Below, one piece after another: positions 40,451 to 51,837 of a stretch of DNA of 64,000 nucleotides. How positions within the stretch are numbered: position 1 is the stretch's first letter; every line of letters begins with the position of its first letter. Location of the stretch: positions 25,701-89,700 of the forward strand of contig CAZOYV010000001.1 in the NCBI GenBank assembly GCA_964584075.1, given 5' to 3'. A program made the translations under genes and the position numbers. Under the pieces are notes generated by a model. That model did no database searches and was not told the origin of the DNA. It worked only from the letters and a program-made list of their open reading frames with translations. The DNA comes from an uncultured Rickettsiales bacterium. GTDB lineage: Bacteria; Myxococcota_A; UBA796; UBA9615; CAYRNR01.

Positions 40451-41467
40451 TCAGTGCTTCAGCAGGTAGTGCAGGACGATCCACAGCAGCAGCGACGTCG
40501 TCGTCAGCGCCGAGATCGCCATCCCGATCGCCATCGAGCGCTTGATCGCGGCCGACGAGAACCCCTCGCTAGGCGGCGCCGCGTTGAACGCCGCCACGGC
40601 AGCCTCGAGATCCTCGCGGGAGCGGATGTCCGACTCGGTGGGGATCTGCCCCGTGACGAAGTGCTGCGCGTAGGGGAAGCACGCCACCACGGAGGGCTCG
40701 GGCGCGAACAGCCCCTCGTGCCACGACAGCTCCTCGAGCGTCACCGCGTCCAGCGGGATGCGCAGCGCGCGCTCCATCTCGCCGGGCTCGAAGACCAGCC
40801 CGAACGGGACCCCGCGCCCGTCGTCGAGGTGCCCGCCGTAGGACACCGAGAGGTTGCCCTCGAGCCACAGCCGCTGGTCCAGCGGGGTCTCCACCCCGGC
40901 GCGCACGTCCGCCACCGCCGCGATGCGCCGCGCCGGCTGGGCCCGCGGCACGTCCACGACGACCTCGCCGCGGTGGGTCGTGGTCACCACCGCCCCCCGC
41001 GCGCCGCCGTCGACGAAGCCCTGCCCCGGGTCGTAGCTCAGCGTGTCGCTGTCGTAGTCGACGATGACCCACGACATCATCCCGCTGTCCTCGTGCTCGG
41101 CGATCACGTACATCTCGACGCGGCTGCCCCAGAACGCGCTGGTGTGGACCGTGAAGGCCCCGAAGATCACGGTCGGCCGGGGCTCGTCGTCCTCGAAGAT
41201 CCGCGTCGGAACGATGCGGTAGCCCCGGGGGAGCAGGGCCTCTGCGCGCTCCACGTCGGTGATCTCGTGGCACAGGAACAGCGCGTAGGGCTCGACCACG
41301 AACCCCATGTAGGGGTTCTTCCGCGACGAGCTCTCCTGGATCCTCGCCTGGACCCCCGCCGGGAGCTTGCCGAGCAGCGAACCGAACAGCGAGATGATCG
41401 CGACCTCGTCGGGGTGCACCATCCGCTCGGCGCGCCGGGCGTACTCGTTCGTCGGATCTGCCTTCAT
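40451..41467 (-). CDS. Hypothetical protein with a C-terminal transmembrane anchor
   Basis: The likely start is MKADPTNEYARRAERMVHPDEV at about 41467. The C-terminus is hydrophobic (MAIGMAISALTTTSLLLWIVLHYLLKH). Confidence 0.4.
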   Translation of the reverse strand: MKADPTNEYARRAERMVHPDEVAIISLFGSLLGKLPAGVQARIQESSSRKNPYMGFVVEPYALFLCHEITDVERAEALLPRGYRIVPTRIFEDDEPRPTVIFGAFTVHTSAFWGSRVEMYVIAEHEDSGMMSWVIVDYDSDTLSYDPGQGFVDGGARGAVVTTTHRGEVVVDVPRAQPARRIAAVADVRAGVETPLDQRLWLEGNLSVSYGGHLDDGRGVPFGLVFEPGEMERALRIPLDAVTLEELSWHEGLFAPEPSVVACFPYAQHFVTGQIPTESDIRSREDLEAAVAAFNAAPPSEGFSSAAIKRSMAIGMAISALTTTSLLLWIVLHYLLKH

Positions 41468-41668
41468 CGGTGCTCCTCGCAGCGAAGCCTCCGGGACGAT
41501 ATCAGGCCGGCGCCGGCGGTGCGCAACGGGGGACCTCGACCCCATGGTGAACCTCATGATGAACTCGTGCGTTTGGCGCGATGGTCCTGGCGCGTTCCTG
41601 CGGTATCCTGTCTGTAGGGCCAACCGCCACGTGAGATCGATTCCGTGGTCGCCCGCACGGGAGGACAC

Positions 41669-41854
41669 ATGGACGCACTCCGGAGACTTCACACGGACGA
41701 GTCCGGGCAGGGCATGACCGAGTACATCCTGATCGTCGTGTTCGTGGCGATCGCGGTGCTGATCGTGCTCGGGATCTTCAAGGACCAGATCAAGCGGCTG
41801 TTCCGCGAGAGCAACCAGGAGCTGACCAACATCAACGTCGCGCCGACGCCGTAG
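41669..41854 (+). CDS. flp: Flp/Fap family type IVb pilin
   Basis: MDALRRLHTDESGQGMTEYILIVVFVAIAVLIVLGIF contains the Flp motif G-x4-EY followed by a hydrophobic helix. No tad genes lie nearby in the window. Confidence 0.6.
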   Translation: MDALRRLHTDESGQGMTEYILIVVFVAIAVLIVLGIFKDQIKRLFRESNQELTNINVAPTP

Positions 41855-41879: not shown

Positions 41880-42947
41880 TCAGGGCTCCAGCTGGAACCC
41901 GAGGCCCGGTTCGTCCCGCGGGTACAGCACCCCGTCGCGCAGGATCACGGCGTCGCGCGCCGGATCGTCGATCAGATCGAGGTGGCCGTCCAGGTCGGCG
42001 TAGCGCACGTTGGGCCGCGCCAGCGCCATGTGCAGCCCGGCGGCGATCGCCAGGCCGGACTCGTCCATGCAGCCGATCATCGCCTCGAGGCCGGCGGCCC
42101 GGGCCACCGAGTTGACGTGCATCGCCTGGGCGATCCCGCCGACCTTCATCAGCTTGATGTTGACCATGTCCACCAGGTCGCGCCGCGCCAGGCGGAACGC
42201 GTCGCGCAGCGTCATCAGGCTCTCGTCGGCCATCACCGGGATCGAGACCTGCCGGGTCACGCGGCCCAGCAGATCGGGCTGGCCCCGGGGGGTGGGCTGC
42301 TCGAGCAGCTCGAGATCGGCGTCCTCGGTGCGCCACACCAGCCGCTGGGCCTGCTCCACCGTGTAGCCCTGGTTGGCGTCGAACCGCAGCTGCACCTCGG
42401 GGCCCACCGCGCTGCGCACGGCCAGGACGCGGGCGATGTCCTCGTCCACGTCGGCGCCGCCCTTGAGCTTGAGGCTCGAGAACCCCTGCTCCACCAGATC
42501 GCGGGCCCGCGCGACGGTCTCGTCGAGGGGCCGGATCCCGATCGTGACGCTGGTGGCGATGTGGTCGCGGTACCCGCCCAGCAGCTGCCACAGCGGCAGC
42601 CCGCTGACCTGGCCCAGCAGGTCGTGCAGCGCCATGTCCAGCGCCGCGAGCGCCGAGGGCCGCGCGCCGAGCTCGTCGCGGAGCTGTTCCAGCAGCAGCG
42701 TCCGCCGCAGCGGGTCGGCGCCGTGCAGCACCGGCTCGGCGTCCTCGCGGAGGCAGGCCAGCACCTCCGCGGCGGTCTCCCCCGTGACCTCGAGGTCCGG
42801 CGCGGCGCAGCCGCACCCCACCAGCCCCTCGTCGGTGGCCACCCGCACGAACACGTTGGTCGTCGAGCTCACCGTCTCGTAGGCGATCGTGTACGGCTCG
42901 GTCAGCCGCATCGAGTGGCTCCAGGCCTCCACCGCGGTCACGCGCAT
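41880..42947 (-). CDS. Enolase-superfamily dipeptide epimerase (L-Ala-D/L-Glu epimerase / DgcA-like N-acyl-amino-acid racemase family)
   Basis: LKLKGG (KxK), DANQGY, MADESL and KLMKVGG are the canonical MR/MLE-subgroup catalytic motifs. 355 aa. Confidence 0.75.
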   Translation of the reverse strand: MRVTAVEAWSHSMRLTEPYTIAYETVSSTTNVFVRVATDEGLVGCGCAAPDLEVTGETAAEVLACLREDAEPVLHGADPLRRTLLLEQLRDELGARPSALAALDMALHDLLGQVSGLPLWQLLGGYRDHIATSVTIGIRPLDETVARARDLVEQGFSSLKLKGGADVDEDIARVLAVRSAVGPEVQLRFDANQGYTVEQAQRLVWRTEDADLELLEQPTPRGQPDLLGRVTRQVSIPVMADESLMTLRDAFRLARRDLVDMVNIKLMKVGGIAQAMHVNSVARAAGLEAMIGCMDESGLAIAAGLHMALARPNVRYADLDGHLDLIDDPARDAVILRDGVLYPRDEPGLGFQLEP

Positions 42948-42957
42948 CGGTCCGTCC

Positions 42958-45306
42958 TCAGCGCCGCCGGCCGCCGATGGCGTCCAGCGACAGGCCCTTG
43001 AGATCCTCGAGCAGGGTCACCATGTGGCGGATCTGGACCGCCCAGATCCGCCGCCCCTTGTCCGCGGTGGCCACCGTGGCGTCGCCCAGCACGCCGGTGC
43101 GCGACAGGCGCGCGGTGCGGACGTACCACTCGACGCTGCGAGGGCCGTCGAAGTCCAGGTACGGGCTGGGGAACCGCGACACGGAGCGCTCGGCGAGGGC
43201 CATGTCCACCAGCTGGGGGCGCTGCGCCAGCATCATGCTGGTCTCGATCTCCCCGGCGTGCACGTCGTTGGGGGTCGAGCAGATCGCCTCCACGTCGGCG
43301 TCGCTGGTCTCTCCGGTGTCGACGGTGGTGAAGATCCGCGCGTCGCGGTTGATCCGCTGGGCGGCGAGCTGCAGCGCGGGGATGTTGCCGCCGTGCCCGT
43401 TGACGATCACCAGCTTGGTGATCCCGTGGCGGGCCACGTTCATCCCGATCTCGTAGACCAGCCGCTCGAGCGTCTCGCCGTCGATCGCGATGGTGCCGGC
43501 GAAGTCCTCGTGGTGGTACGACACGCCGAACGGGATCGCGGGCAGCACCAGCGGCCGCGGCTCGGAGCAGGCCTCCGCGGCGGCCAGCGCCAGGAACTCG
43601 GCGCTGAACGTGTCGGTGTCCAGCGGCAGGTGCGGGCCGTGCTGCTCGGTGGCGCCCACCGGCAGCAGCGCCAGATCGGTCTGCTGCAGCCGGCGCAGCG
43701 CCTCGGGCCAGGTCAGCTCGCACCACAGCTGGGTCGACTTGGCCGGCGGCGGGATCGGATCGTCCCGGCGTGCGGAGGTCGCCTCGGCGGGCGGGGCCTC
43801 GAACGGGTAGGGCGCCGCGAGCACGTCCGGGTCCAGCGGATCGAACTCGACCCACACCCGGCCCACGCGCCGCACCGCGCCGTCGGCGTGCTCCAGCAGC
43901 AGCCGGGTCAGCGGCGCGCGCAGGTCGCGGGGGATCCAGTCCACCGGGGAGCGCACCGGGTCGTAGCGCAGCCGGCCGATCTCGGGGTGCGGCCGTGCGG
44001 CGTGGGCCGCGCCCCCCCCCTCGGGGAGCCGGCCCGCCTGGGACAGCAGCCAGGTCAGGTGCTGGGCCCCGGCCGACTCCTGGTGGACGCCGGCCTCGGC
44101 CAGCGCCCGGAGGCACTCCGCGACCTGCTCGGCGGTGTACCCGCAGCGGGTCGGGTCCGCTCCCAGCGCGACGAGCATCCCGACGATCCGGCGGCACTTC
44201 TCGCAGGCCCCGCAGGGCCGCACGCGGCCGTCCTCGACGTGGGTCGCGTGGCACGAGGTCTGGTGCGCCTGCAGCTCCGGGTAGCGCTCGACCAGCACCT
44301 TCTCGATCAGCAGCTCGGACAGCGGCCGCAGCAGCGAGAACTGGGCCACGTCCCAGCCCTTGCGGTGGAAGTAGCGCGACATCGCCTGGTCGAAGAACCG
44401 GCTCTGGTCGTACAGCCCGTCGTAGTGGGTGATCCCGTGGTACGTCTTGCGCACCGTGGTGTCGAACTCGTCGCCGATCAGCAGCCGCCCCAGCCCGCGC
44501 TTGCGCAGCAGCGGCAGCGCGCCGAACAGGAACACCGCCACGGTCCACAGCCGGATCGGGTACTCGTCGGAGCGCAGCCGCTGGAAGTCGGGCCGCACGA
44601 TCGGCAGCTGCCGGAGCATGAAGCTGAACACGCGGTCCGAGGTGGTCCACACCCGCGCGGTGTGCGGCACGTGCTCCGCGAAGTGCCGGTGGGCGTTGAG
44701 CGCGGTGTGCCAGTGGCGCCCCGACTCGGCCACGAAGATCGGGTGCGACTCCATCCCCAGCTCGCCCAGCAGGCCGTGGGTCAGCAGGCTGTCCTTGCCC
44801 CCGCTGGAGAGCACGGCGTGGCCGAGCCGGTCCAGGGCCCACGGACCCCCCTGGGGGCCCCCGGTGGGGAGCTCGCGGTCGAACAGCAGGCTGGCCTGGA
44901 GGTAGCGCCGCAGCGGACGGGGCTCCAGCTGGGCCGCCGCCCCGACCAGGAACGGGTTGGGATGCAGGAGCTTGATCGCGTAGATCTCGCGGGCGGTGTT
45001 CTCGGCCATGTCGGCGAGGAACCGCCGATCGTGGGCGTCCAGCGGATCGCGGAACACGATCTCGCCGCAGAACAGGCCGTAGTTCAGCGCCAGCTGCGCC
45101 CCGATCAGCCCGGCGAGGTTGCGGTCCGCGTCGGCGTCCGGCTCGAAGACGTCCTCGTCCCACTTGTAGACCAGCTCGGCGGAGACCCGCTCGCCCCCCC
45201 GGACCACCGTGTAGGGCGTGGCCAGCCGGCGCGGCTCGACCCGCGTCGGGCCCACCTCGAGGCGGTCGAAGGCCCGCAGCGCGTGCCGCACGGCGAGGTC
45301 GCTCAC
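42958..45306 (-). CDS. Fusion protein with an N-terminal PP-loop ATP pyrophosphatase-like domain (SGGKDS, C-terminal CxxC) and a C-terminal creatininase-family amidohydrolase domain
   Basis: LSSGGKDSLLTHGLLGELG followed by CGACEKC. The C-terminal LLPVGATEQHGPHLPLDTD...NGHGGN is the creatininase (PF02633) signature. The likely GTG start at about 45306 overlaps the upstream stop (GTGA). The track ORF N-terminal extension to 45786 is Arg/Gly-rich and overlaps the DUF1611 gene. Confidence 0.6.
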   Translation of the reverse strand: MSDLAVRHALRAFDRLEVGPTRVEPRRLATPYTVVRGGERVSAELVYKWDEDVFEPDADADRNLAGLIGAQLALNYGLFCGEIVFRDPLDAHDRRFLADMAENTAREIYAIKLLHPNPFLVGAAAQLEPRPLRRYLQASLLFDRELPTGGPQGGPWALDRLGHAVLSSGGKDSLLTHGLLGELGMESHPIFVAESGRHWHTALNAHRHFAEHVPHTARVWTTSDRVFSFMLRQLPIVRPDFQRLRSDEYPIRLWTVAVFLFGALPLLRKRGLGRLLIGDEFDTTVRKTYHGITHYDGLYDQSRFFDQAMSRYFHRKGWDVAQFSLLRPLSELLIEKVLVERYPELQAHQTSCHATHVEDGRVRPCGACEKCRRIVGMLVALGADPTRCGYTAEQVAECLRALAEAGVHQESAGAQHLTWLLSQAGRLPEGGGAAHAARPHPEIGRLRYDPVRSPVDWIPRDLRAPLTRLLLEHADGAVRRVGRVWVEFDPLDPDVLAAPYPFEAPPAEATSARRDDPIPPPAKSTQLWCELTWPEALRRLQQTDLALLPVGATEQHGPHLPLDTDTFSAEFLALAAAEACSEPRPLVLPAIPFGVSYHHEDFAGTIAIDGETLERLVYEIGMNVARHGITKLVIVNGHGGNIPALQLAAQRINRDARIFTTVDTGETSDADVEAICSTPNDVHAGEIETSMMLAQRPQLVDMALAERSVSRFPSPYLDFDGPRSVEWYVRTARLSRTGVLGDATVATADKGRRIWAVQIRHMVTLLEDLKGLSLDAIGGRRR

Positions 45307-46400
45307 GGCCGTTGCCCCCGGTGGCGGTGCAGCCGCGCGATGGCCTCGACCACCGGCGCGAGGTCGCCGGCCAGCGGCTCCACGGCGGGCCGGTCCGTGC
45401 GCCGCGCCAGCTCCTCGCATGCCGCCGCGACGCCCTCCTGTGCGAGCCCCTCGCGGTTCACCGTCAGCGCGATCACGGGCCTGTCGGACACGATCTCCAG
45501 GGCCTCGATCTGCCGCTCGATGGGGTGGATCGGGTAGCCGGGGAAGCCGTCGTAGTCCCCGCGCGCGGGGGCGTGCTGCAGCACGATCCCGGCGGGCCGC
45601 CCCGCCGCCAGGATCTCGAACCCGCCGGGGTAGGCGGGGTTGAGCAGGCTCCCCTGGCCCTCGATCAGGATCACGTCGGGGCGGGCGTCCTGCCAGCACT
45701 GCCATACCGCGTGCTCGATCTCGCCGGCAACGAAGTCGTTGACCAGCGAGTCCATCACCACGCCCCAGCGGGCGCCCTGCAGCCACGCCGTCTGGCCGGT
45801 GCCCACCAGCTCGGCGTGCAGCCCGGCCGCGGCCAGCGCGTCGGCCAGCAGCCAGGCCGTGGTCCGCTTGCCCACCGCCGAGTCGGTGCCGAGCACGGCG
45901 ACGGTCGTCGCCCCGACCTCCTCGATCTTGCCGCTGAAGAAGTGCAGCTCCGAGCGGGGCGGGGGCCTGCGGATGTCGCGCAGCCGCACCCCGTGCCGCT
46001 CCGCGAGGGCCACCAGCTCCGGGTCGTCGCCGAGCAGGTCGTGCAGCCCGCAGTCCACGTGCAGCCCGTGGGCGATCGCCCGCCGTACGTCCCGCAGCGC
46101 CCGCTCCGGCAGCCGGCCGCCGTCCGGCGCCAGGCCGACCACCAGGTGGGTCGCCGCCACCGGGCCCCCGGCGCTGTGCTCGACGGCCTCGTCGACGGAG
46201 GCCAGCAGCGGGATGTCGGCCGGCGCCCCGTCGAGCAGGGTCCCGGCGTCCTCGCCGGCGCAGGTGGAGTCGACCACGGACAGCACGTCGTAGCGGCGCG
46301 TGCGGCGCACCAGCCCGTGAGCGGTCTTGCCGTTGGTCGTGCGGAAGGCGCCCTCGCAGTACACGATGGCGCCGCCCTCCGGCCAGCTCTTCAGGGACAT
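45303..46400 (-). CDS. DUF1611-family protein (DgcN-like; commonly partnered with enolase-superfamily epimerases)
   Basis: Start MSLKSWPEGGAIVYCEG at about 46400, 5 nt after the upstream stop, with GGAGG in place. About 365 aa. Family assigned by overall similarity as I recall DUF1611 proteins. Moderate confidence. Confidence 0.55.
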   Translation of the reverse strand: MSLKSWPEGGAIVYCEGAFRTTNGKTAHGLVRRTRRYDVLSVVDSTCAGEDAGTLLDGAPADIPLLASVDEAVEHSAGGPVAATHLVVGLAPDGGRLPERALRDVRRAIAHGLHVDCGLHDLLGDDPELVALAERHGVRLRDIRRPPPRSELHFFSGKIEEVGATTVAVLGTDSAVGKRTTAWLLADALAAAGLHAELVGTGQTAWLQGARWGVVMDSLVNDFVAGEIEHAVWQCWQDARPDVILIEGQGSLLNPAYPGGFEILAAGRPAGIVLQHAPARGDYDGFPGYPIHPIERQIEALEIVSDRPVIALTVNREGLAQEGVAAACEELARRTDRPAVEPLAGDLAPVVEAIARLHRHRGQRP

Positions 46401-46405
46401 CGTCG

Positions 46406-47521
46406 TCACCTCCGCCCGGTCAGCACCGCCACGTAGCGGTCGCCGGGCAAGGGGCCCTCCCGGTGTCGGGACAGCAGCGCGATCAGCCCGGCGGTGGAGG
46501 CCGGCAGCACGCTCAGCCCCTCCCGCTCGCGGATCGTCCGCGAGACCGAGCGCATCGCGCGGTCGCTGGCGTCCAGCGCCCAGCCGTCGGTGGCGCGCAG
46601 CGCCTCGAGGGTCGCGTCGCCGTCGATCGAGTGCCAGTTGATCAGCGGCTCGTTGGTCTCGGTCTCGCGGATCTTGCCGGGGTCCAGGTCCTCGCAGGAC
46701 GCCAGCCCCCGCCGGTACGAGTGCACGATCGGGTTCTTGCCGTGGGACGAGCCCGCGACGATCCGCGGCATCCGCGAGGTCTTGCCGCGGCGGTAGAGGC
46801 TCAGGAAGCCGCGGTAGATCCCGGCCAGCGTGGTGCCGTTGGACACCGGCGCGGCGACCACCGCCGGCGCGTCGCGCAGCTCGTCGTAGATCTCGTAGGC
46901 GATCTCGCCGTAGGCCCGCAGCTGCAGCGCGGTGTTGGCCCCGCCCGGGTTGGCGTCGTAGTACTCCGCGGCCTGCGCCGTCTGCCGCGAGAACGCGACC
47001 GCCTGCTCGTAGTCCCCGGGCACCGTCACGATCTCGGCGCCGAGGGTCTCCATCTCGTCGCGGCGCCGCGGGTGGTAGGCCCCGGGCACGTGGATCACGC
47101 AGCGCAGCCCGGCGAAGCGCGCCGCGAGCGCCACCGCTGCGCCGTAGTTGCCGCAGGTCGCCGCGGTGATCACGTCGAACCCGCGGCGCAGCGCGTCCAT
47201 CGCCTGGGCGAACGCGATGCGGTCCTTCTGCGTCCCCGACGGGTTGCCGCCGTCGAACTTGAGGAACAGCTGCCGCAGACCGACCTCGCGCTCGAGGTTG
47301 CGGGCCCGCGTCAGCGAGGTGTCGCCGACCTCCGAGTCGGCGATGTTCTCGAACGCCTCGAGGCGCTCCTCGAGCTCGCGGTCGGGATCGGCGGCGATGC
47401 GCCGCTCGTGCTCCCACTGCTGTTCGAACGCGCCGGGCGCCGCCGTGGCGCCGTCGAGCAGGGTGTCGCCGGGCGTGGCCCGCAGCACGGCCGTGGGGTC
47501 GGGGGTCGGAACAGAACGCAC
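46406..47521 (-). CDS. Fold-type-II PLP-dependent enzyme (threonine-synthase / cysteine-synthase-like)
   Basis: GGNPSGTQKDR (PLP-Lys motif S/T-x-K-D-R), a Gly-rich loop and SNGTTLAGI. The likely GTG start at 47521 is preceded by GGAGG with a 5-nt spacer. The track ORF upstream extension (to 48412) is Arg/Ala-rich. Confidence 0.7.
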   Translation of the reverse strand: MRSVPTPDPTAVLRATPGDTLLDGATAAPGAFEQQWEHERRIAADPDRELEERLEAFENIADSEVGDTSLTRARNLEREVGLRQLFLKFDGGNPSGTQKDRIAFAQAMDALRRGFDVITAATCGNYGAAVALAARFAGLRCVIHVPGAYHPRRRDEMETLGAEIVTVPGDYEQAVAFSRQTAQAAEYYDANPGGANTALQLRAYGEIAYEIYDELRDAPAVVAAPVSNGTTLAGIYRGFLSLYRRGKTSRMPRIVAGSSHGKNPIVHSYRRGLASCEDLDPGKIRETETNEPLINWHSIDGDATLEALRATDGWALDASDRAMRSVSRTIREREGLSVLPASTAGLIALLSRHREGPLPGDRYVAVLTGRR

Positions 47522-47776
47522 GAGTGCCTCCGTTGCGAGTACGCGGTGGTAGTTTGCACCCGCCGTGCCAATCCGCGCGAGCGCTTCGCGACGGCGCGCG
47601 CCGCGCCGGGAGGGCGGTGATCCGGAAGCACGGCTTCCGGTCGTGTCCGATCCAGAAGTGGTGGTTCCGCTCTCGCGACGCGCGGTCCGCCGCGTCGAGG
47701 TGCTCCCGAGTGATCGTGCACCGATCCGGCGGGTGGTGGCTCTCCAGGGAGGAACCCCAGAGGAGAGCTCGTTCCC

Positions 47777-48127
47777 ATGCTCGGACGGCAGCGTACCCAG
47801 GACCGCTCGATCGAGAGCCGGATCCACGTCACCCCGGAGGCCCAGACCGCGCTGGTCGAGGCGCTGGACCAGGAGCCGGAGGCACCCCGCTCGTTGCGCC
47901 TGTACTTGCAGGGCTATGGCTGAGGCGGTCCCAGCCTGGGCGTGGCCCGGGACGAGGCACGCGACGACGACCGGCAGGTCCGGATCGGCGACCTGACGTT
48001 CCTGATCGACCGCGAGATGGAGCGGTCGCTGGCGATGTACGGCGGGCTCGAGATCGGGTACCGCGACAGCCCCTGGGGCGGTGGCTTCACGATCCAGTTC
48101 TCCGGGGTGGGCGGCGGCTGCTGCTGA
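47777..48127 (+). CDS. HesB/IscA-like Fe-S scaffold homologue selenoprotein with an in-frame TGA (Sec) at 47921-47923 replacing the first conserved Cys
   Basis: ORF 47777..47923 (IHVTPEAQTALVEAL...SLRLYLQGYG) and track ORF 47942..48127 (...RIGDLTFLIDREMERSLAMYGGLEIGYRDSPWGGGFTIQFSG..GGCC) are in the same frame with only the TGA between them. They align to IscA: I.LT..A...V..L....LRLGV..SGCSG..Y...VDGKSLQFLDGTQLDF...GF.F.NPN..CGCG. LQGYG-U-GG aligns with SGCSG. Confidence 0.6.
47935..47951 (+). promoter_or_regulatory. Putative SECIS hairpin for the HesB-like gene
   Basis: Begins 11 nt after the UGA. ccugggc-gug-gcccggg forms a 7-bp stem (one U.G at stem position 3) with a G/U loop. It has the same geometry as the hairpin after the PrdB-like UGA. 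Confidence 0.45.
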
Positions 48128-48323: not shown

Positions 48324-48533
48324 GTGGCCAACCGCCCCGCCGATGGCCGGCAGACCATCGAGGGGCTGGAGCGGGTCGGGGACGGCCGGTCCATGGAGCT
48401 GGTGCTGGCCAACGACCTGGCGATCCTGGCGAATCGCTGCTTCGCGCACCCCGAGCGGCTCGGCGGCGAGGCGCTGCCGACGGTGGCCCTGCTGTCGGCC
48501 GAGGGCGAGCCGTTCTACCACTTCCAGCTCTGA
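48324..48533 (+). CDS. Small hypothetical ORF (69 aa); reality uncertain
   Basis: MANRPADGRQTIEGLERVGDGRSMELVLANDLAILANRCFAHPERLGGEALPTVALLSAEGEPFYHFQL. Plausible composition, but no recognisable family. Confidence 0.25.
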   Translation: MANRPADGRQTIEGLERVGDGRSMELVLANDLAILANRCFAHPERLGGEALPTVALLSAEGEPFYHFQL

Positions 48534-48616
48534 CCCCACCGTGACCTCCCGGAACGCGATACCGTTCACGGGACGGCGGCTCGCCGCGAGACCGGTCTGT
48601 GGAGGGTTCGGGTGCC

Positions 48617-50944
48617 ATGCGGACGTGTTGGATGATCGTGCTGCTGTGCTGGATTCCGGGGGCCGCGGCCGCGGAGCCGCCCACCGAAGACGAGCGGATC
48701 GAGCGGCTGGCCTCGCTGGGCGACCTGTGGGGCATGGTCCAGTACTTCCACCCCGAGATCACGACCCGCGACATCGACTGGGACCGGGCGTTGCTCGAGA
48801 CCATCCCGCGGGTCGACGCCGCCGAGACGGTCGAGCAGTACCGGGCGGCCGTGGACCACATGCTGGCGTTCCTCGACGATCCGGCGACGCGGACGATCGA
48901 CGCGGAGGCACTGGTCGGCACGGACGAGGCCGCCCCCGGTGACGGTGCCGAGCCGGGGGAAGACGCCGAGGAGTGCGACGGGCCGGTGCTGGAGCGGCTG
49001 CCCGGCGATCTCGTCGTCCTCGACGCGCGCGACGTCGCCTGTGTCGCGGCAGGATACAGCTGGCGGGGGGACGGCCCGTTCGTCGAGGCCATCGAGCAGG
49101 CGGACGGGGCCCGCGCGATGGTGGTCGACCTGCGCACACCGGAGGTCGCGGACGCCTGGATGGTGCACGACGCGTTCGAGCGCGACGTCTCGGCGAGGCT
49201 CCCCGCGGACGCGTTCGGCCCGGCCCTGCGCACGCGGCTGCACTCGGGCTATCCGCCCCAGACGGGGTTCTCGTCCGGCGGCTACTGGGCCGGCCTGCTC
49301 ACCGTCGAGCCGCGGCGGCTCGAGCGCGGCGAGCTCCCCGAGGGCCGGCCGCCGCCGATGGTGCTGCTCCTCGGGGAGGGCTCGTCCGAGGGGCTGGAGC
49401 CGGCGTCGGCCCTGCGCTCGGCGGGGCTGGCGCGCATCGTCTACGAGGGCGATCCGGCGCGGCTGATCGGCCAGACCGAGCGCCTCGAGCTCGCCGGGGA
49501 GGTGGTCGTCGAGCTGCTGGTCGCCCAGTACGTGGAGCGGGATGGTGCCGTCGGCGTGGCGGTGGATCTGCTGCTGCCCCCGCCCGAGCCGGGGGCCCGC
49601 AAGGACGTGGCCCGCGACCGGGCGATCGCGATGGCCCGCGGCCGGCTCGATCCCACCCCCCCGGACCGGGTCCCCGAGCCGGTCACGCTCCGCGCGATGA
49701 TCGACGACCCCTACGGCGAGCAGTGGCCTCCGCCCCGGGAGTACCGGCTGCTGGCGCTGTTCCGGATGTGGAACGCGATCCGGTTCTTCTACGCCTACCA
49801 GCACCTGCAGGACACGCCCTGGGAGGACGCGCTGCCGGAGTTCCTCCCGGTGTTCGAGCAGGCCGAGGGAGACGATGCGTACCGGGAGGCCGTGTGGCGG
49901 CTGGCCGCCCGCGTGCAGGACGACCACGTGATGTACTGCTCCAACGCGCTGTGGTGGACCTTCGGGCGGTTCGCCCCGTACCTGTCGACGCGGTTCTTCG
50001 GTGACGAGCTGGTGGTCGTCGACGCCGGGCCGACCGAGCTCGAGCGGGGGGTCGAGGTCGGCGACGTGATCCTAGAGATCGACGGCGCCACCGTCGCGGA
50101 GCGCCTCGACACCCTGACCCCGTACATCGCCGCGTCCAGCCGGCAGCAGCTCCTCAGCCGGGCGGCGAGTTTCGCCCTGGCGGGGGAGTTCAAGACCGAT
50201 GCCCGGCTATCGCTGCGCCACGGGGACGGGACGGTCGTGGAGGTCGAGGTGCCGCGCACGTCCGATCCCGGGACCAAGCGCAGCGTCTTCAAGTGGGCGC
50301 TCGACACCGTCGAGGAGCTGGACGGCGGCATCGGCTACGCCGACCTGGCCCGCCTGACGCCCGATCAGGTCCCGGAGATGCTCGACGAGTTCCGCGAGCT
50401 GCCGGCGATCATCCTCGACATGCGGGGCTACCCCCATGGCACGGCCTGGGCCCTGCCCCAGCGGCTGACCCACGAGTCGAGGCCGGTGGCGGCGCGGTTC
50501 CAGCGTCCGATGCTGATCGGCACCGAGTTCGTCCTCGCCGGAGATCACCAGCCGGTGTACGGCTTCGCCCAGCGGGTCGAGCCCCGGGACGACCGCGACT
50601 GGGTCTACGACGGCGAGATCGTCGTGCTGATCGACGAGACTGCGGTCAGCCAGGCCGAGCACACCTGCCTGTTCCTCGAGGCCGCGGTCCCCGACGTGAC
50701 GTTCGTCGGCCGGCCCACCGCCGGCACCAACGGGGACGTCACGTCGATCGTGCTGCCCGGCGCGCTGCAGGTGTGGTTCACCGGCCACGACGTGCGTCAC
50801 GCCGACGGCCGCCAGCTGCAGCAGCTCGGGATCCAGCCGGACATCCACGTGGAGGCCACGATCGAGAGCCTGATCGAGGGCCGCGACGAGATCCTCGACG
50901 CGGCGCTGGCCCACCTGGCTGCGACGCTCGAGCCGGGCGGCTGA
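48617..50944 (+). CDS. Secreted peptidase S41 family (C-terminal processing / tail-specific protease-like) with a PDZ-like domain
   Basis: ATG at 48617, preceded by GGAGGG. Signal peptide MRTCWMIVLLCWIPGAAAA. VGDVILEIDG (PDZ). VVLIDETAVSQAEHTCLFL and FVGRPTAG (S41 Ser/Lys region). Confidence 0.7.
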   Translation: MRTCWMIVLLCWIPGAAAAEPPTEDERIERLASLGDLWGMVQYFHPEITTRDIDWDRALLETIPRVDAAETVEQYRAAVDHMLAFLDDPATRTIDAEALVGTDEAAPGDGAEPGEDAEECDGPVLERLPGDLVVLDARDVACVAAGYSWRGDGPFVEAIEQADGARAMVVDLRTPEVADAWMVHDAFERDVSARLPADAFGPALRTRLHSGYPPQTGFSSGGYWAGLLTVEPRRLERGELPEGRPPPMVLLLGEGSSEGLEPASALRSAGLARIVYEGDPARLIGQTERLELAGEVVVELLVAQYVERDGAVGVAVDLLLPPPEPGARKDVARDRAIAMARGRLDPTPPDRVPEPVTLRAMIDDPYGEQWPPPREYRLLALFRMWNAIRFFYAYQHLQDTPWEDALPEFLPVFEQAEGDDAYREAVWRLAARVQDDHVMYCSNALWWTFGRFAPYLSTRFFGDELVVVDAGPTELERGVEVGDVILEIDGATVAERLDTLTPYIAASSRQQLLSRAASFALAGEFKTDARLSLRHGDGTVVEVEVPRTSDPGTKRSVFKWALDTVEELDGGIGYADLARLTPDQVPEMLDEFRELPAIILDMRGYPHGTAWALPQRLTHESRPVAARFQRPMLIGTEFVLAGDHQPVYGFAQRVEPRDDRDWVYDGEIVVLIDETAVSQAEHTCLFLEAAVPDVTFVGRPTAGTNGDVTSIVLPGALQVWFTGHDVRHADGRQLQQLGIQPDIHVEATIESLIEGRDEILDAALAHLAATLEPGG

Positions 50945-50958
50945 GCGGGGCTCGGAGG

Positions 50959-51837
50959 CTACCTCGTCCAGGGTGTGGACGGCTCCTGGGCCGGCCGCCC
51001 GATCAGGCGCGCGACGACGACCGCGCGGTCGCTGCCCTCCGACCACCGCTGGCCGGCGTGGCCGCCGAGCACCGCGAGCACGTCGAAGTCCCACTGGCCG
51101 AGCTGGGCCTCGAGCCACCGCAGGTCGACGCGGTACAGGTCCAGCGTGCACTCACGCGCCTCGATCAGCCTGCCGCTGACCGGATGGACCCGGCTGTACC
51201 GCTGGCGGATCTGGACCACGGTCCCGTCGATCGACGGATGCTCGAAGACCGTCTTGTCCACGACGTGACCGTAGGGCCCGACGCGGAACGTGCTGCGGGT
51301 GGCCTCGCGACCGCCGCCGGGAGCGGTGCGACCGGGGGAGGCGAGGTCGAGGATCAGCAGCCCGCCGGGGACGAGGTGCGCGGCGCAGCGCGCGAGGCAC
51401 GCCGCCTGGGGTGTGGGTCCGGGGAGCAGCTGCAGCCCCGAGAACGGGATCAGGATGGCGTCGAACCGGCGCGGGAAGCGGAACGACACCATGTCCTGCT
51501 GGGAGAACCGCAGGCGCGCCGCCACGTCGCCGGGCAGCCGGCGGCGCCGCGTCCGGGCCCGGCGGATCATCGACGCCGAGCGATCCAGGCCCATGACCCG
51601 CAGCCCGGCCTGCGCCATCGGGATCGCCACCCGGCCGGTCCCGCAGCCGAGCTCCAGGACGTCGCGGCAGGGGCCGTGATCGGCCAGCAGCCGCAGGGTC
51701 CCGGCGACGTCCGCCGTCGCGGCGGCGTACTCGGCGTCGTAGGTCGCGGCCAGCCCCCGGTAGGGATCGGCGACGGGCGGGACCGGCGGCGGGTCGGCGG
51801 ACCCGGGCTCACCCCCGGTCCGAGAGCGGCTTGCCAT
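50959..51837 (-). CDS. Class I SAM-dependent methyltransferase
   Basis: VLELGCGTGRVAIPMA (motif I), DAILIP... and GGLLILD blocks. The last gene of the minus-strand operon. Confidence 0.7.
   Translation of the reverse strand: MASRSRTGGEPGSADPPPVPPVADPYRGLAATYDAEYAAATADVAGTLRLLADHGPCRDVLELGCGTGRVAIPMAQAGLRVMGLDRSASMIRRARTRRRRLPGDVAARLRFSQQDMVSFRFPRRFDAILIPFSGLQLLPGPTPQAACLARCAAHLVPGGLLILDLASPGRTAPGGGREATRSTFRVGPYGHVVDKTVFEHPSIDGTVVQIRQRYSRVHPVSGRLIEARECTLDLYRVDLRWLEAQLGQWDFDVLAVLGGHAGQRWSEGSDRAVVVARLIGRPAQEPSTPWTR

What the first reader, a model, noticed from the sequence alone, without database searches (positions are those of the whole stretch)
41880..47521. Four-gene operon with a PLP fold-II enzyme, DUF1611, a PP-loop-ATPase/creatininase fusion and a dipeptide-epimerase-family racemase
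All four genes are co-oriented with overlapping or 5-nt junctions (GGAGGtgacgacgATG; GTGA; 10-nt gap). DUF1611 plus an enolase-superfamily epimerase is the DgcN/DgcA-type pairing (N-acetyl-D-amino-acid formation and racemisation). Here that pair is interrupted by a roughly 780-aa fusion of a PP-loop ATP pyrophosphatase domain (SGGKDS...CxxC) with a creatininase-family hydrolase domain (GATEQHGPHLPLDTD), and preceded by a threonine-synthase/cysteine-synthase-like PLP enzyme. I do not know a characterised pathway with this composition. It looks like a modified D-amino-acid or small amide, lactam or peptide metabolite pathway.
Basis: partly seen in the sequence, partly recalled or inferred. Interest (0 to 1): 0.7.

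Follow-up and report, generated by a model that had tools for sequence, protein, structure and literature searches.

The report
Conserved uncharacterised amino-acid/dipeptide editing operon
This is a real, tightly packed four-gene operon found almost unchanged in many sediment bacteria, with a rebuilt version in Thermoplasmatota archaea; it most likely uses ATP to join, epimerise and re-cleave an amino-acid or dipeptide derivative, and no member has been studied.

Summary
Four co-oriented minus-strand genes (47521..41880) encode a threonine-synthase-like PLP enzyme, a DUF1611 protein, a 782-aa fusion protein and a dipeptide-epimerase-type enolase-superfamily enzyme. The junctions are as described.

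The N-terminal 500 aa of the fusion match no Pfam or NCBIfam PP-loop model. A confident AlphaFold model nevertheless superposes best on QueC, Cap9 and QatC. The SGGKDS loop and a four-Cys motif are invariant.

The gene order recurs in about 25 loci from at least eight bacterial lineages, with unrelated flanks. One relative fuses DUF1611 to the N-domain and leaves the creatininase as a separate gene.

A second, archaeal layout (Thermoplasmatota) keeps PLP–DUF1611–N-domain and the epimerase. It replaces the creatininase with a protein that carries an M14-type zinc motif, and it adds a GNAT.

None of the four proteins reaches the NCBIfam cut-off for DgcN, DgcA, MftE, creatininase or Ala-Glu epimerase.

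Best reading (confidence about 0.4): ATP-dependent adenylation and amide coupling, epimerisation of the C-terminal residue, then metal-dependent release, with the PLP enzyme making or consuming the amino acid. The substrate is unknown but is not glutamate.

The parts
46406..47521 (-). g1: PLP fold-II enzyme, threonine-synthase-like (371 aa). PLP lysine lies in GTQKDR. The family-specific motifs CGNYG, YDAN, NGxTL, NEPL and LPAS are conserved in 72 orthologues.
   Evidence: Pfam PALP 190 bits. NF004996/PRK06381 421 bits, above its cut-off of 266, but thrC TIGR00260 only 87 bits against 167. Best PDB relatives are threonine synthases at E 1e-24. The threonine-synthase motif NSVNPxRxEGQK is not conserved. 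Motif conservation.
47527..47531 (-). GGAGG ribosome-binding site, 5 nt upstream of the g1 GTG start
   Evidence: Read directly from the sequence.
45303..46400 (-). g2: DUF1611 protein (365 aa) with a Rossmann-like N-domain and a P-loop-like C-domain. Conserved motifs: GTDSAVGKRT, TGQT, EGQG.
   Evidence: PF17396 84 bits and PF07755 207 bits. DgcN NF041892 147 bits, below its cut-off of 480. PDB relatives 2g0t, 7xrj and 2obn, with alignments. Conservation in 91 orthologues.
42958..45306 (-). g3: 782-aa fusion of a QueC-like PP-loop domain (about aa 1-500), a variable linker (about aa 500-528) and a creatininase-family hydrolase domain (aa 530-765)
   Evidence: Translation. Full-length homologues at 59-66% identity across phyla. 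An exact-sequence protein is on record.
43807..45306 (-). g3 N-domain (aa 1-500): no curated family. Rossmann-type PP-loop core flanked by an N-terminal beta/alpha subdomain and a C-terminal helical subdomain.
44788..44805 (-). PP-loop motif SGGKDS (aa 168-173)
   Evidence: S168, G169, G170, K171 and S173 are invariant in 20 full-length homologues. The motif is SSGGKES in stand-alone relatives.
44194..44253 (-). Four-cysteine motif: C352 ... C365-x2-C368-x2-C371. It resembles the QueC/QatC zinc site.
   Evidence: Invariant. The equivalent four-Cys zinc site in QatC and QueC is described in PMC13376578.
43012..43719 (-). g3 C-domain: creatininase/MftE-family metal-dependent amidohydrolase (aa 530-765). 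Motifs: EQHGPHLPLDTD, NGHGGN, HAGEIETS.
   Evidence: PF02633 239 bits. MftE TIGR03964 149 bits, below 172; creatininase TIGR04448 114 bits, below 235. PDB creatininases at E 2e-18. The motifs are invariant.
41880..42947 (-). g4: enolase-superfamily epimerase of the dipeptide-epimerase type (355 aa). Conserved: KxK (K160/K162), D189, E217, D242, K266, DxD (D318/D320). Glu24 sits at the position of YkfB Arg24.
   Evidence: MR_MLE_N and MR_MLE_C hits. Best PDB matches: 3rit E 3e-74, 3jva, 1jpm. Residue conservation in about 25 bacterial orthologues and in archaeal orthologues.

Best explanation
The four genes form one self-contained enzyme module. It carries out an ATP-driven 'join, epimerise, release' cycle on an amino acid held in amide linkage to an acyl, aminoacyl or peptidyl 'handle'.

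Proposed steps, with their basis:
1. The QueC-like PP-loop domain of g3 adenylates a carboxylate (ATP to AMP + PPi), and an amine captures the adenylate to form an amide. This is inferred from fold, motif and the family mechanism.
2. DUF1611 (g2) works directly with that domain, either as the N-acyl transferase that makes its substrate or as the enzyme that transfers the activated acyl group. This is inferred from gene fusion, adjacency and the one studied relative, DgcN.
3. g4 inverts the alpha-carbon of the C-terminal residue of the resulting dipeptide-like compound. This step is well supported by a complete dipeptide-epimerase active site. The side chain is probably not acidic.
4. The creatininase/MftE-like domain of g3 hydrolyses the amide bond, releasing the edited amino acid or dipeptide and regenerating the handle. 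This is inferred.
5. The threonine-synthase-like PLP enzyme (g1) makes the amino acid that enters the cycle or consumes the one that leaves. The reaction is unknown.

The net effect would be ATP-paid stereo-inversion of an amino acid, or production of an L,D-dipeptide. This is the logic of the DgcN/DgcA/deacetylase route, but with different enzymes and ATP as the energy source. The substrate and the physiological role are not known.
For: - Co-inheritance. g1-g2-g3-g4 occur in the same order in about 25 loci with unrelated flanks. The lineages are Gemmatimonadota, Desulfobacterota (including cultured Desulfosarcina widdelii PP31), Acidobacteriota, Planctomycetota, Calditrichota, Krumholzibacteriales, Aminicenantes and Bacteroidota. 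No other gene is conserved alongside.
- Gene fusions in both directions. N-domain is fused to creatininase here; DUF1611 is fused to the N-domain in P0124, where the creatininase is a separate 267-aa gene in the same PALP-...-MR_MLE cassette.
- DUF1611 lies next to the N-domain in 72 of 80 metagenomic loci of stand-alone N-domain relatives. In some archaeal loci these two are the only cassette members present.
- Hydrolase displacement. The archaeal cassette keeps PALP (65% identical to g1), DUF1611, N-domain and MR_MLE (45% identical to g4). In place of the creatininase it has a 450-aa protein with an M14-type HxxE motif. One member scores 26.3 bits against the Peptidase_M14 cut-off of 21.6, and about a third of homologues carry PF00246. 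One locus has an HDAC-type amidohydrolase.
- PP-loop fold, SGGxDS loop and four-Cys site. [quoted passage not shown] Cap9 ligates a carboxylate to an N-terminal amine (PMC13376578).
- g4 active site. KxK, D/E/D, K and the DxD motif are invariant. In B. subtilis YkfB, DxD binds the free ammonium of a dipeptide (recalled from published YkfB work). Glu replaces YkfB Arg24 in both cassette types.
- The g3 C-domain is closest to MftE, a peptidyl-dipeptidase.
Against: - No biochemical data exist for any member. Every step except family membership is inference.
- DUF1611 and a GNAT co-occur in the archaeal cassette, so DUF1611 need not be an acetyltransferase.
- A ligase and a hydrolase in one polypeptide could equally mean two unrelated consecutive steps.
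- The role of the PLP enzyme, the most conserved component, is unexplained.
- One bacterial locus (L023) has g1 and g3 but lacks g2 and g4 within 10 kb. One variant (L092) has no creatininase.
- The M14 assignment rests on a short partial HMM match, and the AF2 model of that protein was poor (pLDDT 55).
- In published structures, dipeptide epimerases enclose small substrates, so a peptidyl handle would not fit g4.
Confidence: 0.4

Rival explanations
1. Biosynthesis of a small capped or L,D-configured dipeptide-like metabolite, for example a compatible solute. The PLP enzyme makes an unusual amino acid, DUF1611 (or the GNAT) N-acylates it as a protecting group, the PP-loop domain couples or amidates the carboxylate, the hydrolase removes the protecting group, and the epimerase sets the final D-centre.
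For: - Gene order matches this reaction order.
- N-acyl plus C-amide capping is the logic of the known solute N-acetylglutaminylglutamine amide (my own knowledge).
- Genes for K+ channel/TrkA domains, an MscS-type channel, SLC12/amino-acid permeases and DHH proteins lie beside the cassette in several loci.
- In archaea the cassette sits among housekeeping genes such as proteasome, thermosome and deoxyhypusine synthase. This suits a core biosynthetic role.
Against: - The osmotic-type neighbours occur in a minority of loci, and no neighbour is conserved.
- No exporter or regulator is conserved.
- A hydrolase is an odd constant member of a short biosynthetic route.
- No such metabolite is known from these organisms.
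Confidence: 0.2
2. The N-domain is itself a MurL-like ATP-dependent one-way epimerase. It adenylates the alpha-carboxylate of an N-acyl or peptidyl amino acid, the activated centre racemises (for example through an oxazolone), and hydrolysis gives the D-form. DUF1611 or the GNAT supplies the N-acyl substrate, and the hydrolase removes the acyl group.
For: - The only curated family that the N-domain touches is MurL (NF041275): E 4e-6 for g3 and 4e-4 for two distant stand-alone relatives, always collinear over model positions about 230-340. There are also weak PF19932 hits in the same stretch.
- MurL needs ATP, gives AMP, acts on the C-terminal residue of an acylated peptide, and was reported to have no recognisable domain (PMC5808125 and PMC8788868).
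- GNAT plus N-domain pairs exist.
Against: - The similarity is short and includes the Cys-rich stretch, so it may reflect only a shared zinc site.
- No MurL sequence or structure was available for a profile or fold comparison.
- A second racemising enzyme (g4) in the same operon would be redundant.
Confidence: 0.1
3. Sulfur-insertion route analogous to CysO/CysM/Mec. The PP-loop domain converts a carboxylate into a thiocarboxylate, the PLP enzyme uses it as a sulfur nucleophile on a phosphorylated amino acid, and after acyl shift the metallohydrolase releases a thiol amino acid and recycles the carrier.
For: - The four conserved cysteines could hold an Fe-S cluster instead of zinc.
- The trio of PLP fold-II enzyme, adenylating enzyme and metallohydrolase is the known composition of the thiocarboxylate pathways (my own knowledge).
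Against: - The closest neighbours are QueC, Cap9 and QatC, which use nitrogen nucleophiles and bind zinc.
- No sulfur-donor gene is conserved.
- The epimerase and DUF1611 have no role in this scheme.
Confidence: 0.07
4. Catabolic recycling of murein-type or necromass peptides, as with MpaA/YcjG. The hydrolase trims a peptide to a dipeptide, the epimerase converts L,D to L,L, and the remaining enzymes process the products.
For: - A carboxypeptidase-like enzyme beside a dipeptide epimerase is the E. coli mpaA-ycjG pairing (my own knowledge).
- The hosts are sediment organisms that live on detrital protein.
- One variant locus is flanked by an M15/beta-lactamase-domain gene. Ddl-like ATP-grasp genes lie near the cassette in the window and in two other loci.
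Against: - No peptide transporter is conserved.
- Glu24 in g4 argues against L-Ala-D-Glu.
- Thermoplasmatota have no murein.
- An ATP-consuming adenylating enzyme and a threonine-synthase-like enzyme are not expected in simple peptide breakdown.
Confidence: 0.07
5. Chance adjacency of unrelated genes, or a mis-called fusion.
For: None found.
Against: - The order is conserved in about 25 loci across phyla.
- Alternative fusions occur.
- Exact-sequence proteins are on record.
- Third-position GC is continuous across g3.
Confidence: 0.01

Closest known systems
DgcN/DgcA D-glutamate catabolic route (N-acetylate, racemise, deacetylate)
   Same: It pairs a DUF1611 protein with an enolase-superfamily racemase of the dipeptide-epimerase branch and adds an amide hydrolase. 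It has the same 'derivatise, invert, release' logic. PMC12363236 describes dgcN as the key gene of an irreversible racemisation pathway.
   Different: - g2 and g4 are far below the DgcN and DgcA cut-offs (147 vs 480 bits; 169 vs 400 bits).
- g4 has Glu at the position that binds the Glu side chain in Ala-Glu epimerase.
- The cassette adds an ATP-dependent PP-loop enzyme and a PLP enzyme.
- The hydrolase is of the creatininase or M14 type.
Dipeptide epimerases of the enolase superfamily (B. subtilis YkfB, E. coli YcjG, M. capsulatus 3RIT, E. faecalis 3JVA)
   Same: g4 aligns end to end with E 3e-74 to 5e-67. It keeps KxK, the three metal ligands, the second Lys and the DxD motif.
   Different: - YkfB Arg24 is replaced by Glu.
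- g4 shares the CMDES stretch with the M. capsulatus enzyme, which was crystallised with L-Arg-D-Lys (my recollection of the PDB entry title).
- The genomic partners are entirely different.
QueC / Cap9 / QatC (QueC-like PP-loop ATP pyrophosphatases)
   Same: These are the best structural matches. They share the SGGxDS loop and a four-Cys site after the core. Like QatC, the g3 N-domain has a roughly 150-aa N-terminal extension and a helical C-terminal region.
   Different: - Sequence identity is 13-20%, and no HMM hit to QueC was found.
- The context is metabolic, with no PADLOC hit.
- The partners are DUF1611 and a PLP enzyme rather than queuosine or defence genes.
[quoted passage not shown]
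   Same: It is ATP-dependent, forms AMP, and acts on the C-terminal residue of an N-acylated amino acid. It is the only curated family with any sequence match to the N-domain.
   Different: - The match is short (about 70-110 residues, 19-26 bits against a cut-off of 700).
- MurL partners with MurD2 in cell-wall synthesis, whereas this cassette also occurs in archaea.
MftE / creatininase family
   Same: There is a full-length PF02633 match with the family motifs. MftE, a peptidyl-dipeptidase, is the closest curated member.
   Different: - It scores below both equivalog cut-offs.
- It is fused to a PP-loop domain.
- No mycofactocin genes are nearby.
- It is replaced by a protein with an M14-type motif in archaea.
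Threonine synthase
   Same: It is the same PLP fold-II branch. NCBI's PRK06381 model, named 'threonine synthase', is passed with 421 bits.
   Different: - It fails the thrC TIGR00260 cut-off.
- The threonine-synthase motif NSVNPxRxEGQK, which contains an Arg that I recall binds the substrate phosphate, is not conserved.
- It is always encoded with DUF1611 and the N-domain.
- The name is probably an over-annotation.
Carrier- or scaffold-based amino-acid editing (LysW pathway; CysO/CysM/Mec; scaffold-peptide 'pearlin' pathways)
   Same: This is a 'works like' analogy only: ATP-dependent attachment of an amino acid to a carboxylate handle, chemistry on the tethered residue, then release by a metallopeptidase that recycles the handle.
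   Different: - The enzyme families are different.
- No carrier gene exists in the bacterial cassette.
- A conserved 52-aa ORF with an acidic C-terminus exists only in the archaeal version.

Membership tests
PP-loop ATP pyrophosphatase, QueC-like | SGGxDS PP-loop motif at the start of the nucleotide-binding core | tested here: met
   SGGKDS is at aa 168-173. S168, G169, G170, K171 and S173 are invariant in 20 homologues. Stand-alone relatives have SSGGKES.
PP-loop ATP pyrophosphatase, QueC-like | Rossmann-like PP-loop fold | tested here: met
PP-loop ATP pyrophosphatase, QueC-like | Four-cysteine zinc site after the core | tested here: met
   C352, C365, C368 and C371 are invariant. The metal itself was not determined.
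PP-loop ATP pyrophosphatase, QueC-like | Match to a curated QueC or PP-loop sequence model | tested here: not met
   No Pfam or NCBIfam PP-loop hit, even at E<=10. No PDB sequence match.
PP-loop ATP pyrophosphatase, QueC-like | Substrate-dependent ATP to AMP + PPi activity | not testable with these tools
   Needs an enzyme assay.
Creatininase family (PF02633) | Full-length match above the gathering score, with the family motifs | tested here: met
   238.7 bits against 31.3, covering aa 530-765. EQHGPHLPLDTD, NGHGGN and HAGEIETS are invariant.
MftE (TIGR03964) and creatininase proper (TIGR04448) | Equivalog score cut-off | tested here: not met
   148.8 bits, below 172; 113.6 bits, below 235. 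No mycofactocin genes in the window.
DUF1611 (PF17396 + PF07755) | Both domains above the gathering score, with GTDxxVGK and TGQT motifs | tested here: met
   84.3 and 207.5 bits. Motifs align with 2g0t, 7xrj and 2obn.
DgcN (NF041892) | Equivalog score cut-off | tested here: not met
   146.9 bits, below 480.
DgcN (NF041892) | Acetyl-CoA-dependent N-acetylation of D-Glu | not testable with these tools
   Needs an enzyme assay.
Enolase superfamily, dipeptide-epimerase group | KxK, three acidic metal ligands, second catalytic Lys, and the DxD motif | tested here: met
   K160/K162, D189, E217, D242, K266 and D318/D320 align with YkfB, 3rit and 3jva. They are invariant in orthologues.
L-Ala-D/L-Glu epimerase | Arg24 (YkfB numbering), which pairs with the Glu side chain; NCBIfam equivalog cut-offs | tested here: not met
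   Glu24 replaces the Arg and is conserved. NF041118 225 bits, below 500; NF011708 114 bits, below 343.
DgcA N-acetyl-D-Glu racemase (NF042940) | Equivalog score cut-off | tested here: not met
   168.9 bits, below 400.
Threonine synthase | thrC model TIGR00260 and the conserved NSVNPxRxEGQK stretch | tested here: not met
   86.8 bits, below 167.1. The stretch aligns to GANTALQLRAYGE in g1.
Threonine synthase | NCBIfam NF004996 (PRK06381) cut-off | tested here: met
   421 bits, above 266. The model seems to describe exactly this cassette-linked subfamily, so the name is not evidence of the reaction.
MurL (NF041275) | Equivalog score cut-off and full-length similarity | tested here: not met
   25.6 bits, below 700. 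Only aa 304-374 match.
MurL (NF041275) | Remote homology by profile or structure comparison | not tested
   No MurL sequence was available and the AFDB library was not available.
Known anti-phage defence systems (QatC/Cap9 contexts) | Match to a PADLOC model | tested here: not met
   No hit for any of the four proteins.

The most novel reading that the evidence does not exclude
The N-domain founds an undescribed family of QueC-like, MurL-related adenylating enzymes. Together with DUF1611 it runs a carrier-recycling, ATP-paid machine. The machine attaches an amino acid to a carboxylate handle (a small molecule in bacteria, possibly the conserved 52-aa acidic-tailed peptide in Thermoplasmatota), inverts or otherwise edits it, and releases it. 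This would be a previously unknown way for slow-growing sediment bacteria and archaea to make or salvage D-amino acids.
Probability: 0.25. Interest if true: 0.85.

Novelty: new variant of a known kind. Interest (0 to 1): 0.65.

Why it matters
- The cassette is common in uncultured sediment and subsurface lineages of at least eight bacterial phyla and in Thermoplasmatota. Current annotation calls its parts 'threonine synthase', 'DUF1611', 'creatininase family protein' and 'dipeptide epimerase', which hides the fact that they form one pathway.
- Its signature enzyme, a 500-aa QueC-like domain, has no curated family. It may also explain the fold of MurL, an antibiotic-target epimerase reported to have 'no known domains'.
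- If the module does ATP-driven stereo-inversion or builds L,D-dipeptides, it bears on how subsurface microbes handle D-amino acids.
- It also shows that metagenomic counts of 'dgcN' based on DUF1611 similarity may include genes from a different pathway.

Tried and rejected
- Sequence-library detection of the PP-loop failed: Pfam and NCBIfam at relaxed E-values, and PDB by sequence. Structure prediction was needed.
- Four literature searches found nothing on this cassette: DUF1611 + creatininase; DUF1611 alone; creatininase / dipeptide epimerase / threonine synthase; QueC-like / PP-loop / epimerase. The dipeptide-epimerase specificity paper could not be read.
- The AFDB fold library was unavailable, so MurL could not be compared structurally. 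No MurL sequence could be obtained.
- RiPP or precursor-peptide idea for the bacterial cassette: no conserved small ORF lies beside type-1 loci. The divergent HesB-like ORF and the 69-aa ORF in the window are not conserved elsewhere.
- Defence-system idea, prompted by the Cap9 and QatC matches: no PADLOC hit.
- A riboswitch or other RNA upstream: no Rfam match in the whole window.
- Conserved transporter, regulator or ATP-grasp partner: rejected. Neighbours differ from locus to locus, and ATP-grasp genes are near only 3 loci.
No fold search was run on it.
- The promoter/terminator scan found nothing.


Full report
**1. What is in the window**

The window is 70-76% G+C, so raw ORF lists are full of spurious frames. 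Third-position GC picks out four consecutive minus-strand genes between 47521 and 41880.

- g1: 47521..46406, 371 aa, GTG start, GGAGG 5 nt upstream.
- g2: 46400..45303, 365 aa, ATG start.
- g3: 45306..42958, 782 aa, GTG start.
- g4: 42947..41880, 355 aa, ATG start.

All four proteins, with exactly these ends, are on record as called genes of one 107,871-bp NCBI contig.

A convergent 46-aa ORF begins 27 nt beyond the g4 stop. Upstream of g1 there are 256 nt and then a divergent gene. The transcription unit is therefore these four genes.

**2. Families**

- g1 is a PLP fold-II enzyme (PALP, 190 bits).
- g2 has both DUF1611 domains.
- g3 has a creatininase domain at aa 530-765 (239 bits) and nothing recognisable before it.
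- g4 has both MR_MLE domains.

Against NCBI's curated models:

- g1 passes PRK06381 'threonine synthase' (421 bits, cut-off 266) but fails thrC (87 bits, cut-off 167).
- g2 is far below DgcN (147 bits, cut-off 480).
- The g3 C-domain is nearest to MftE (149 bits, cut-off 172), then creatininase (114 bits, cut-off 235).
- g4 is below L-Ala-D/L-Glu epimerase (225 bits, cut-off 500) and below DgcA (169 bits, cut-off 400).

No protein matches a PADLOC defence model, and the window has no Rfam match.

**3. The N-terminal 500 residues of g3**

No Pfam or NCBIfam PP-loop model matches this region, even at E<=10, and no PDB sequence matches it. It is nevertheless very conserved: 59-66% identity over the whole 782 aa in proteins from different phyla.

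An AlphaFold model built on 11 homologues is confident (pLDDT 87, pTM 0.87).

- Foldseek puts QatC first, with 402 aligned columns, then QueC and Cap9.

The SGGKDS loop and four cysteines (C352, C365, C368, C371) are invariant. This matches the zinc site described for QueC and QatC (PMC13376578).

The family is small: 447 representatives at E<=1e-3 among 1.8 billion.

The only curated family it touches is MurL. The match is weak but recurs at the same collinear position: E 4e-6 for g3, and 4e-4 for two distant relatives. MurL is an ATP-dependent, AMP-forming epimerase of a peptide's C-terminal glutamate that was reported to lack known domains (PMC5808125 and PMC8788868). I could not test this lead further, because no MurL sequence was available and the AFDB library was unavailable.

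**4. The epimerase**

g4 aligns end to end with solved dipeptide epimerases: 3rit E 3e-74, 3jva, and YkfB (1jpm). KxK, the three metal ligands, the second lysine and the DxD motif are all present. They are invariant in about 25 bacterial orthologues and in the archaeal ones.

In YkfB, DxD holds the free ammonium of the dipeptide and Arg24 pairs with the glutamate side chain. I recall this from the published YkfB complex. Here the residue aligned with Arg24 is Glu, conserved in both cassette types.

So g4 looks like a true dipeptide-type epimerase whose C-terminal residue is not glutamate and may be basic. It shares the CMDES stretch with 3rit.

**5. The PLP enzyme**

The best solved relatives of g1 are threonine synthases, at E about 1e-24. 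The threonine-synthase stretch NSVNPxRxEGQK is replaced by GANTALQLRAYGE. The family has its own invariant motifs (GTQKDRI, CGNYG, YDAN, NEPL), conserved in 72 orthologues.

It is the best-conserved component: the archaeal version is still about 65% identical. Its reaction cannot be named.

**6. Conservation of the cassette in bacteria**

Neighbourhoods of three g3 homologues show PALP-DUF1611-fusion-MR_MLE in the same order, amid completely different flanking genes. The three come from the Gemmatimonadota chromosome CP070758, Desulfatiglans LR026961 and a Thermoguttaceae contig.

A scan of one genome per species returned about 25 full-length loci. They come from Desulfobacteraceae (including cultured Desulfosarcina widdelii PP31), Gemmatimonadota, Acidobacteriota, Calditrichia, Krumholzibacteriales, Aminicenantes, Bacteroidota and others.

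tblastn finds g1, g2 and g4 in the expected places wherever the contig reaches far enough, at 55-71% identity. There are two exceptions:

- L023 has g1 and g3 but neither g2 nor g4.
- L026 has a truncated g3 plus g4.

Clustering all flanking ORFs found no fifth conserved gene. The immediate neighbours are heterogeneous: MFS, amino-acid permease/SLC12, an MscS-type channel, DHH, GNAT plus nitrilase, a TonB receptor, a chaperonin and so on. Chance adjacency is excluded.

**7. Variants, which carry most of the functional information**

- P0124 fuses DUF1611 to the N-domain. In its contig the creatininase is a separate 267-aa gene within PALP-[DUF1611~N-domain]-creatininase-MR_MLE.
- L092 has PALP-DUF1611-N-domain-MR_MLE with no creatininase.
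- Stand-alone N-domains (470-520 aa, 30-50% identical, PP-loop and Cys motifs intact) sit next to DUF1611 and/or a GNAT.

A metagenome scan with these stand-alone relatives gave 80 loci. A census of those loci gave:

| Component | Loci (of 80) |
|---|---|
| N-domain | 80 |
| DUF1611 | 72 |
| GNAT | 59 |
| PALP | 52 |
| ~450-aa protein with M14-type motif | 27 |
| MR_MLE | 23 |

Many of these contigs are short.

The usual layout is PALP-DUF1611-N-domain on one strand and MR_MLE-[450-aa protein]-GNAT convergent on the other. Five loci have only DUF1611 plus the N-domain.

Flanking genes are archaeal housekeeping genes: proteasome alpha subunit, Pus10, deoxyhypusine synthase and thermosome. Named homologues of the 450-aa protein come from Thermoplasmatales SG8-52 and other Thermoplasmatota genomes assembled from metagenomes.

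The 450-aa protein has an invariant HSDE (HxxE) motif, later His residues and NCEVP. One member passes the Peptidase_M14 gathering score (26.3 bits, cut-off 21.6), though only over about 55 residues. About a third of homologues carry PF00246. A profile search of the PDB and an AlphaFold model (pLDDT 55) did not confirm the fold, so this assignment is tentative.

If the assignment holds, the creatininase domain has been replaced by a non-homologous metallohydrolase while everything else is kept. One further locus has an HDAC-type amidohydrolase beside the N-domain.

**8. Inference**

The following are shown:

- The family or fold of each part.
- Intact catalytic motifs.
- Co-inheritance of five activities: PLP enzyme, DUF1611, PP-loop adenylating domain, amide hydrolase and C-terminal-residue epimerase.
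- Fusions linking DUF1611, the N-domain and the hydrolase.
- DUF1611 plus the N-domain as the core pair.

The following are inferred:

- PP-loop enzymes AMPylate a first substrate, which a second nucleophile then attacks.
- Enolase-type epimerases need a carboxylate next to the carbon they invert, and DxD implies a free amino terminus.
- Creatininase/MftE and M14 enzymes cleave an amide bond next to a C-terminal residue.

The simplest scheme that uses all of this is 'join, epimerise, release'. A carboxylate handle is adenylated and coupled to an amino acid (N-domain with DUF1611). The C-terminal residue is epimerised (g4). The amide is cleaved (hydrolase), which recycles the handle. The PLP enzyme makes or removes the amino acid.

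This scheme explains why a ligase-type and a hydrolase-type domain can be fused without forming a futile cycle. It also explains why the hydrolase can be swapped, and why the arrangement resembles the DgcN/DgcA route without being orthologous to it. I put this at about 0.4.

The rivals are:

- A protect-couple-deprotect synthesis of a capped or L,D-dipeptide solute (0.2). Osmotic-type neighbours in a few loci support it weakly.
- A MurL-like one-way epimerase (0.1).
- A thiocarboxylate route (0.07).
- Murein or necromass peptide recycling (0.07).

None can be excluded without enzymology.

**9. Comparison with what is known, and novelty**

No paper in the searchable library mentions this gene combination. 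Each enzyme superfamily is known. The combination, the core DUF1611-QueC-like pair and the N-domain family are not described.

I rate it a new variant of a known kind: a derivatise-epimerise-release amino-acid pathway. A roughly one-in-four chance remains that it is something more unusual, namely a carrier-recycling, ATP-driven editing machine related to MurL.

Interest is 0.65. The cassette is real, widespread and misannotated, and a cultured host makes it experimentally tractable. Its mechanism and substrate are still conjecture.

Noticed in passing
window 47777..48127 (+): A HesB/IscA-like ORF is interrupted by an in-frame TGA at 47921-47923 (…LRLYLQGYG-TGA-GGPSLG…), at the spot where such proteins have Cys. 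The part after the TGA matches NF038090 IscA_HesB_Se (E 3.7e-5) and TIGR01911, and third-position GC supports coding across the TGA. This is a candidate selenoprotein. A hairpin lies a few nt downstream, but it is no more stable than shuffled sequence. The ORF is not conserved next to the cassette elsewhere.
   Followed up: partly
window 41714..41853 (+): A 46-aa hydrophobic ORF (MTEYILIVVFVAIAVLIVLGIFKDQIKRLFRESNQELTNINVAPTP) runs convergent with g4. By eye it looks like a Flp-type pilin. It marks the 3' end of the operon.
   Followed up: no
window 50959..55697 (-) and 48599..50944 (+): A cluster of three genes lies next to a 781-aa S41-family peptidase: a methyltransferase (nearest to a daptide-type RiPP methyltransferase but below cut-off), a 522-aa ATP-grasp + GNAT fusion, and a 780-aa protein with a Ddl-like ATP-grasp C-terminus. 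Related ATP-grasp genes lie near the cassette only in L003 and L007, so a link to the operon is unproven.
   Followed up: partly
L104 3127..3300 (+) and 19 other archaeal loci (e.g. L143 8526..8684): A conserved ORF of about 52 aa (MDNKINVTQKLLKIVKHRKTPVVVNKQENGYKKNRKVSRSLAYESYSYDSDE-like) has a basic N-terminus and an acidic C-terminal tail. It sits between the GNAT and the M14-like gene of the archaeal cassette. It is absent from bacterial loci and from the window. It could be a carrier or scaffold peptide, or a regulator.
   Followed up: partly
L094 3679..8524: One variant locus has a 648-aa HDAC-type amidohydrolase and a 452-aa degenerate paralogue of the N-domain (PP-loop reads TFGKES) directly upstream of an intact N-domain. 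PALP-DUF1611-GNAT run convergent, and an M15/beta-lactamase-domain gene is next door.
   Followed up: partly
proteins P0159 and P0162: These N-domain + creatininase fusions are 31-34% identical to g3. Their PP-loop motif is degenerate (SGSAES, DGTRES), and in P0162 the NGHGGN motif of the creatininase domain is also altered (NRIPSN). They are possibly non-catalytic relatives.
   Followed up: no
L009 12310..14937; L023: In one Gemmatimonadota locus, about 2.6 kb separates g3 from g4. In a Calditrichia chromosome, g1 and g3 are adjacent and g2 and g4 are missing within 10 kb.
   Followed up: partly
window 48324..48533 (+) and 40451..41470 (-): A 69-aa ORF upstream of the operon and a roughly 340-aa protein with a C-terminal membrane helix downstream have no family match. 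Neither is conserved near the cassette.
   Followed up: partly
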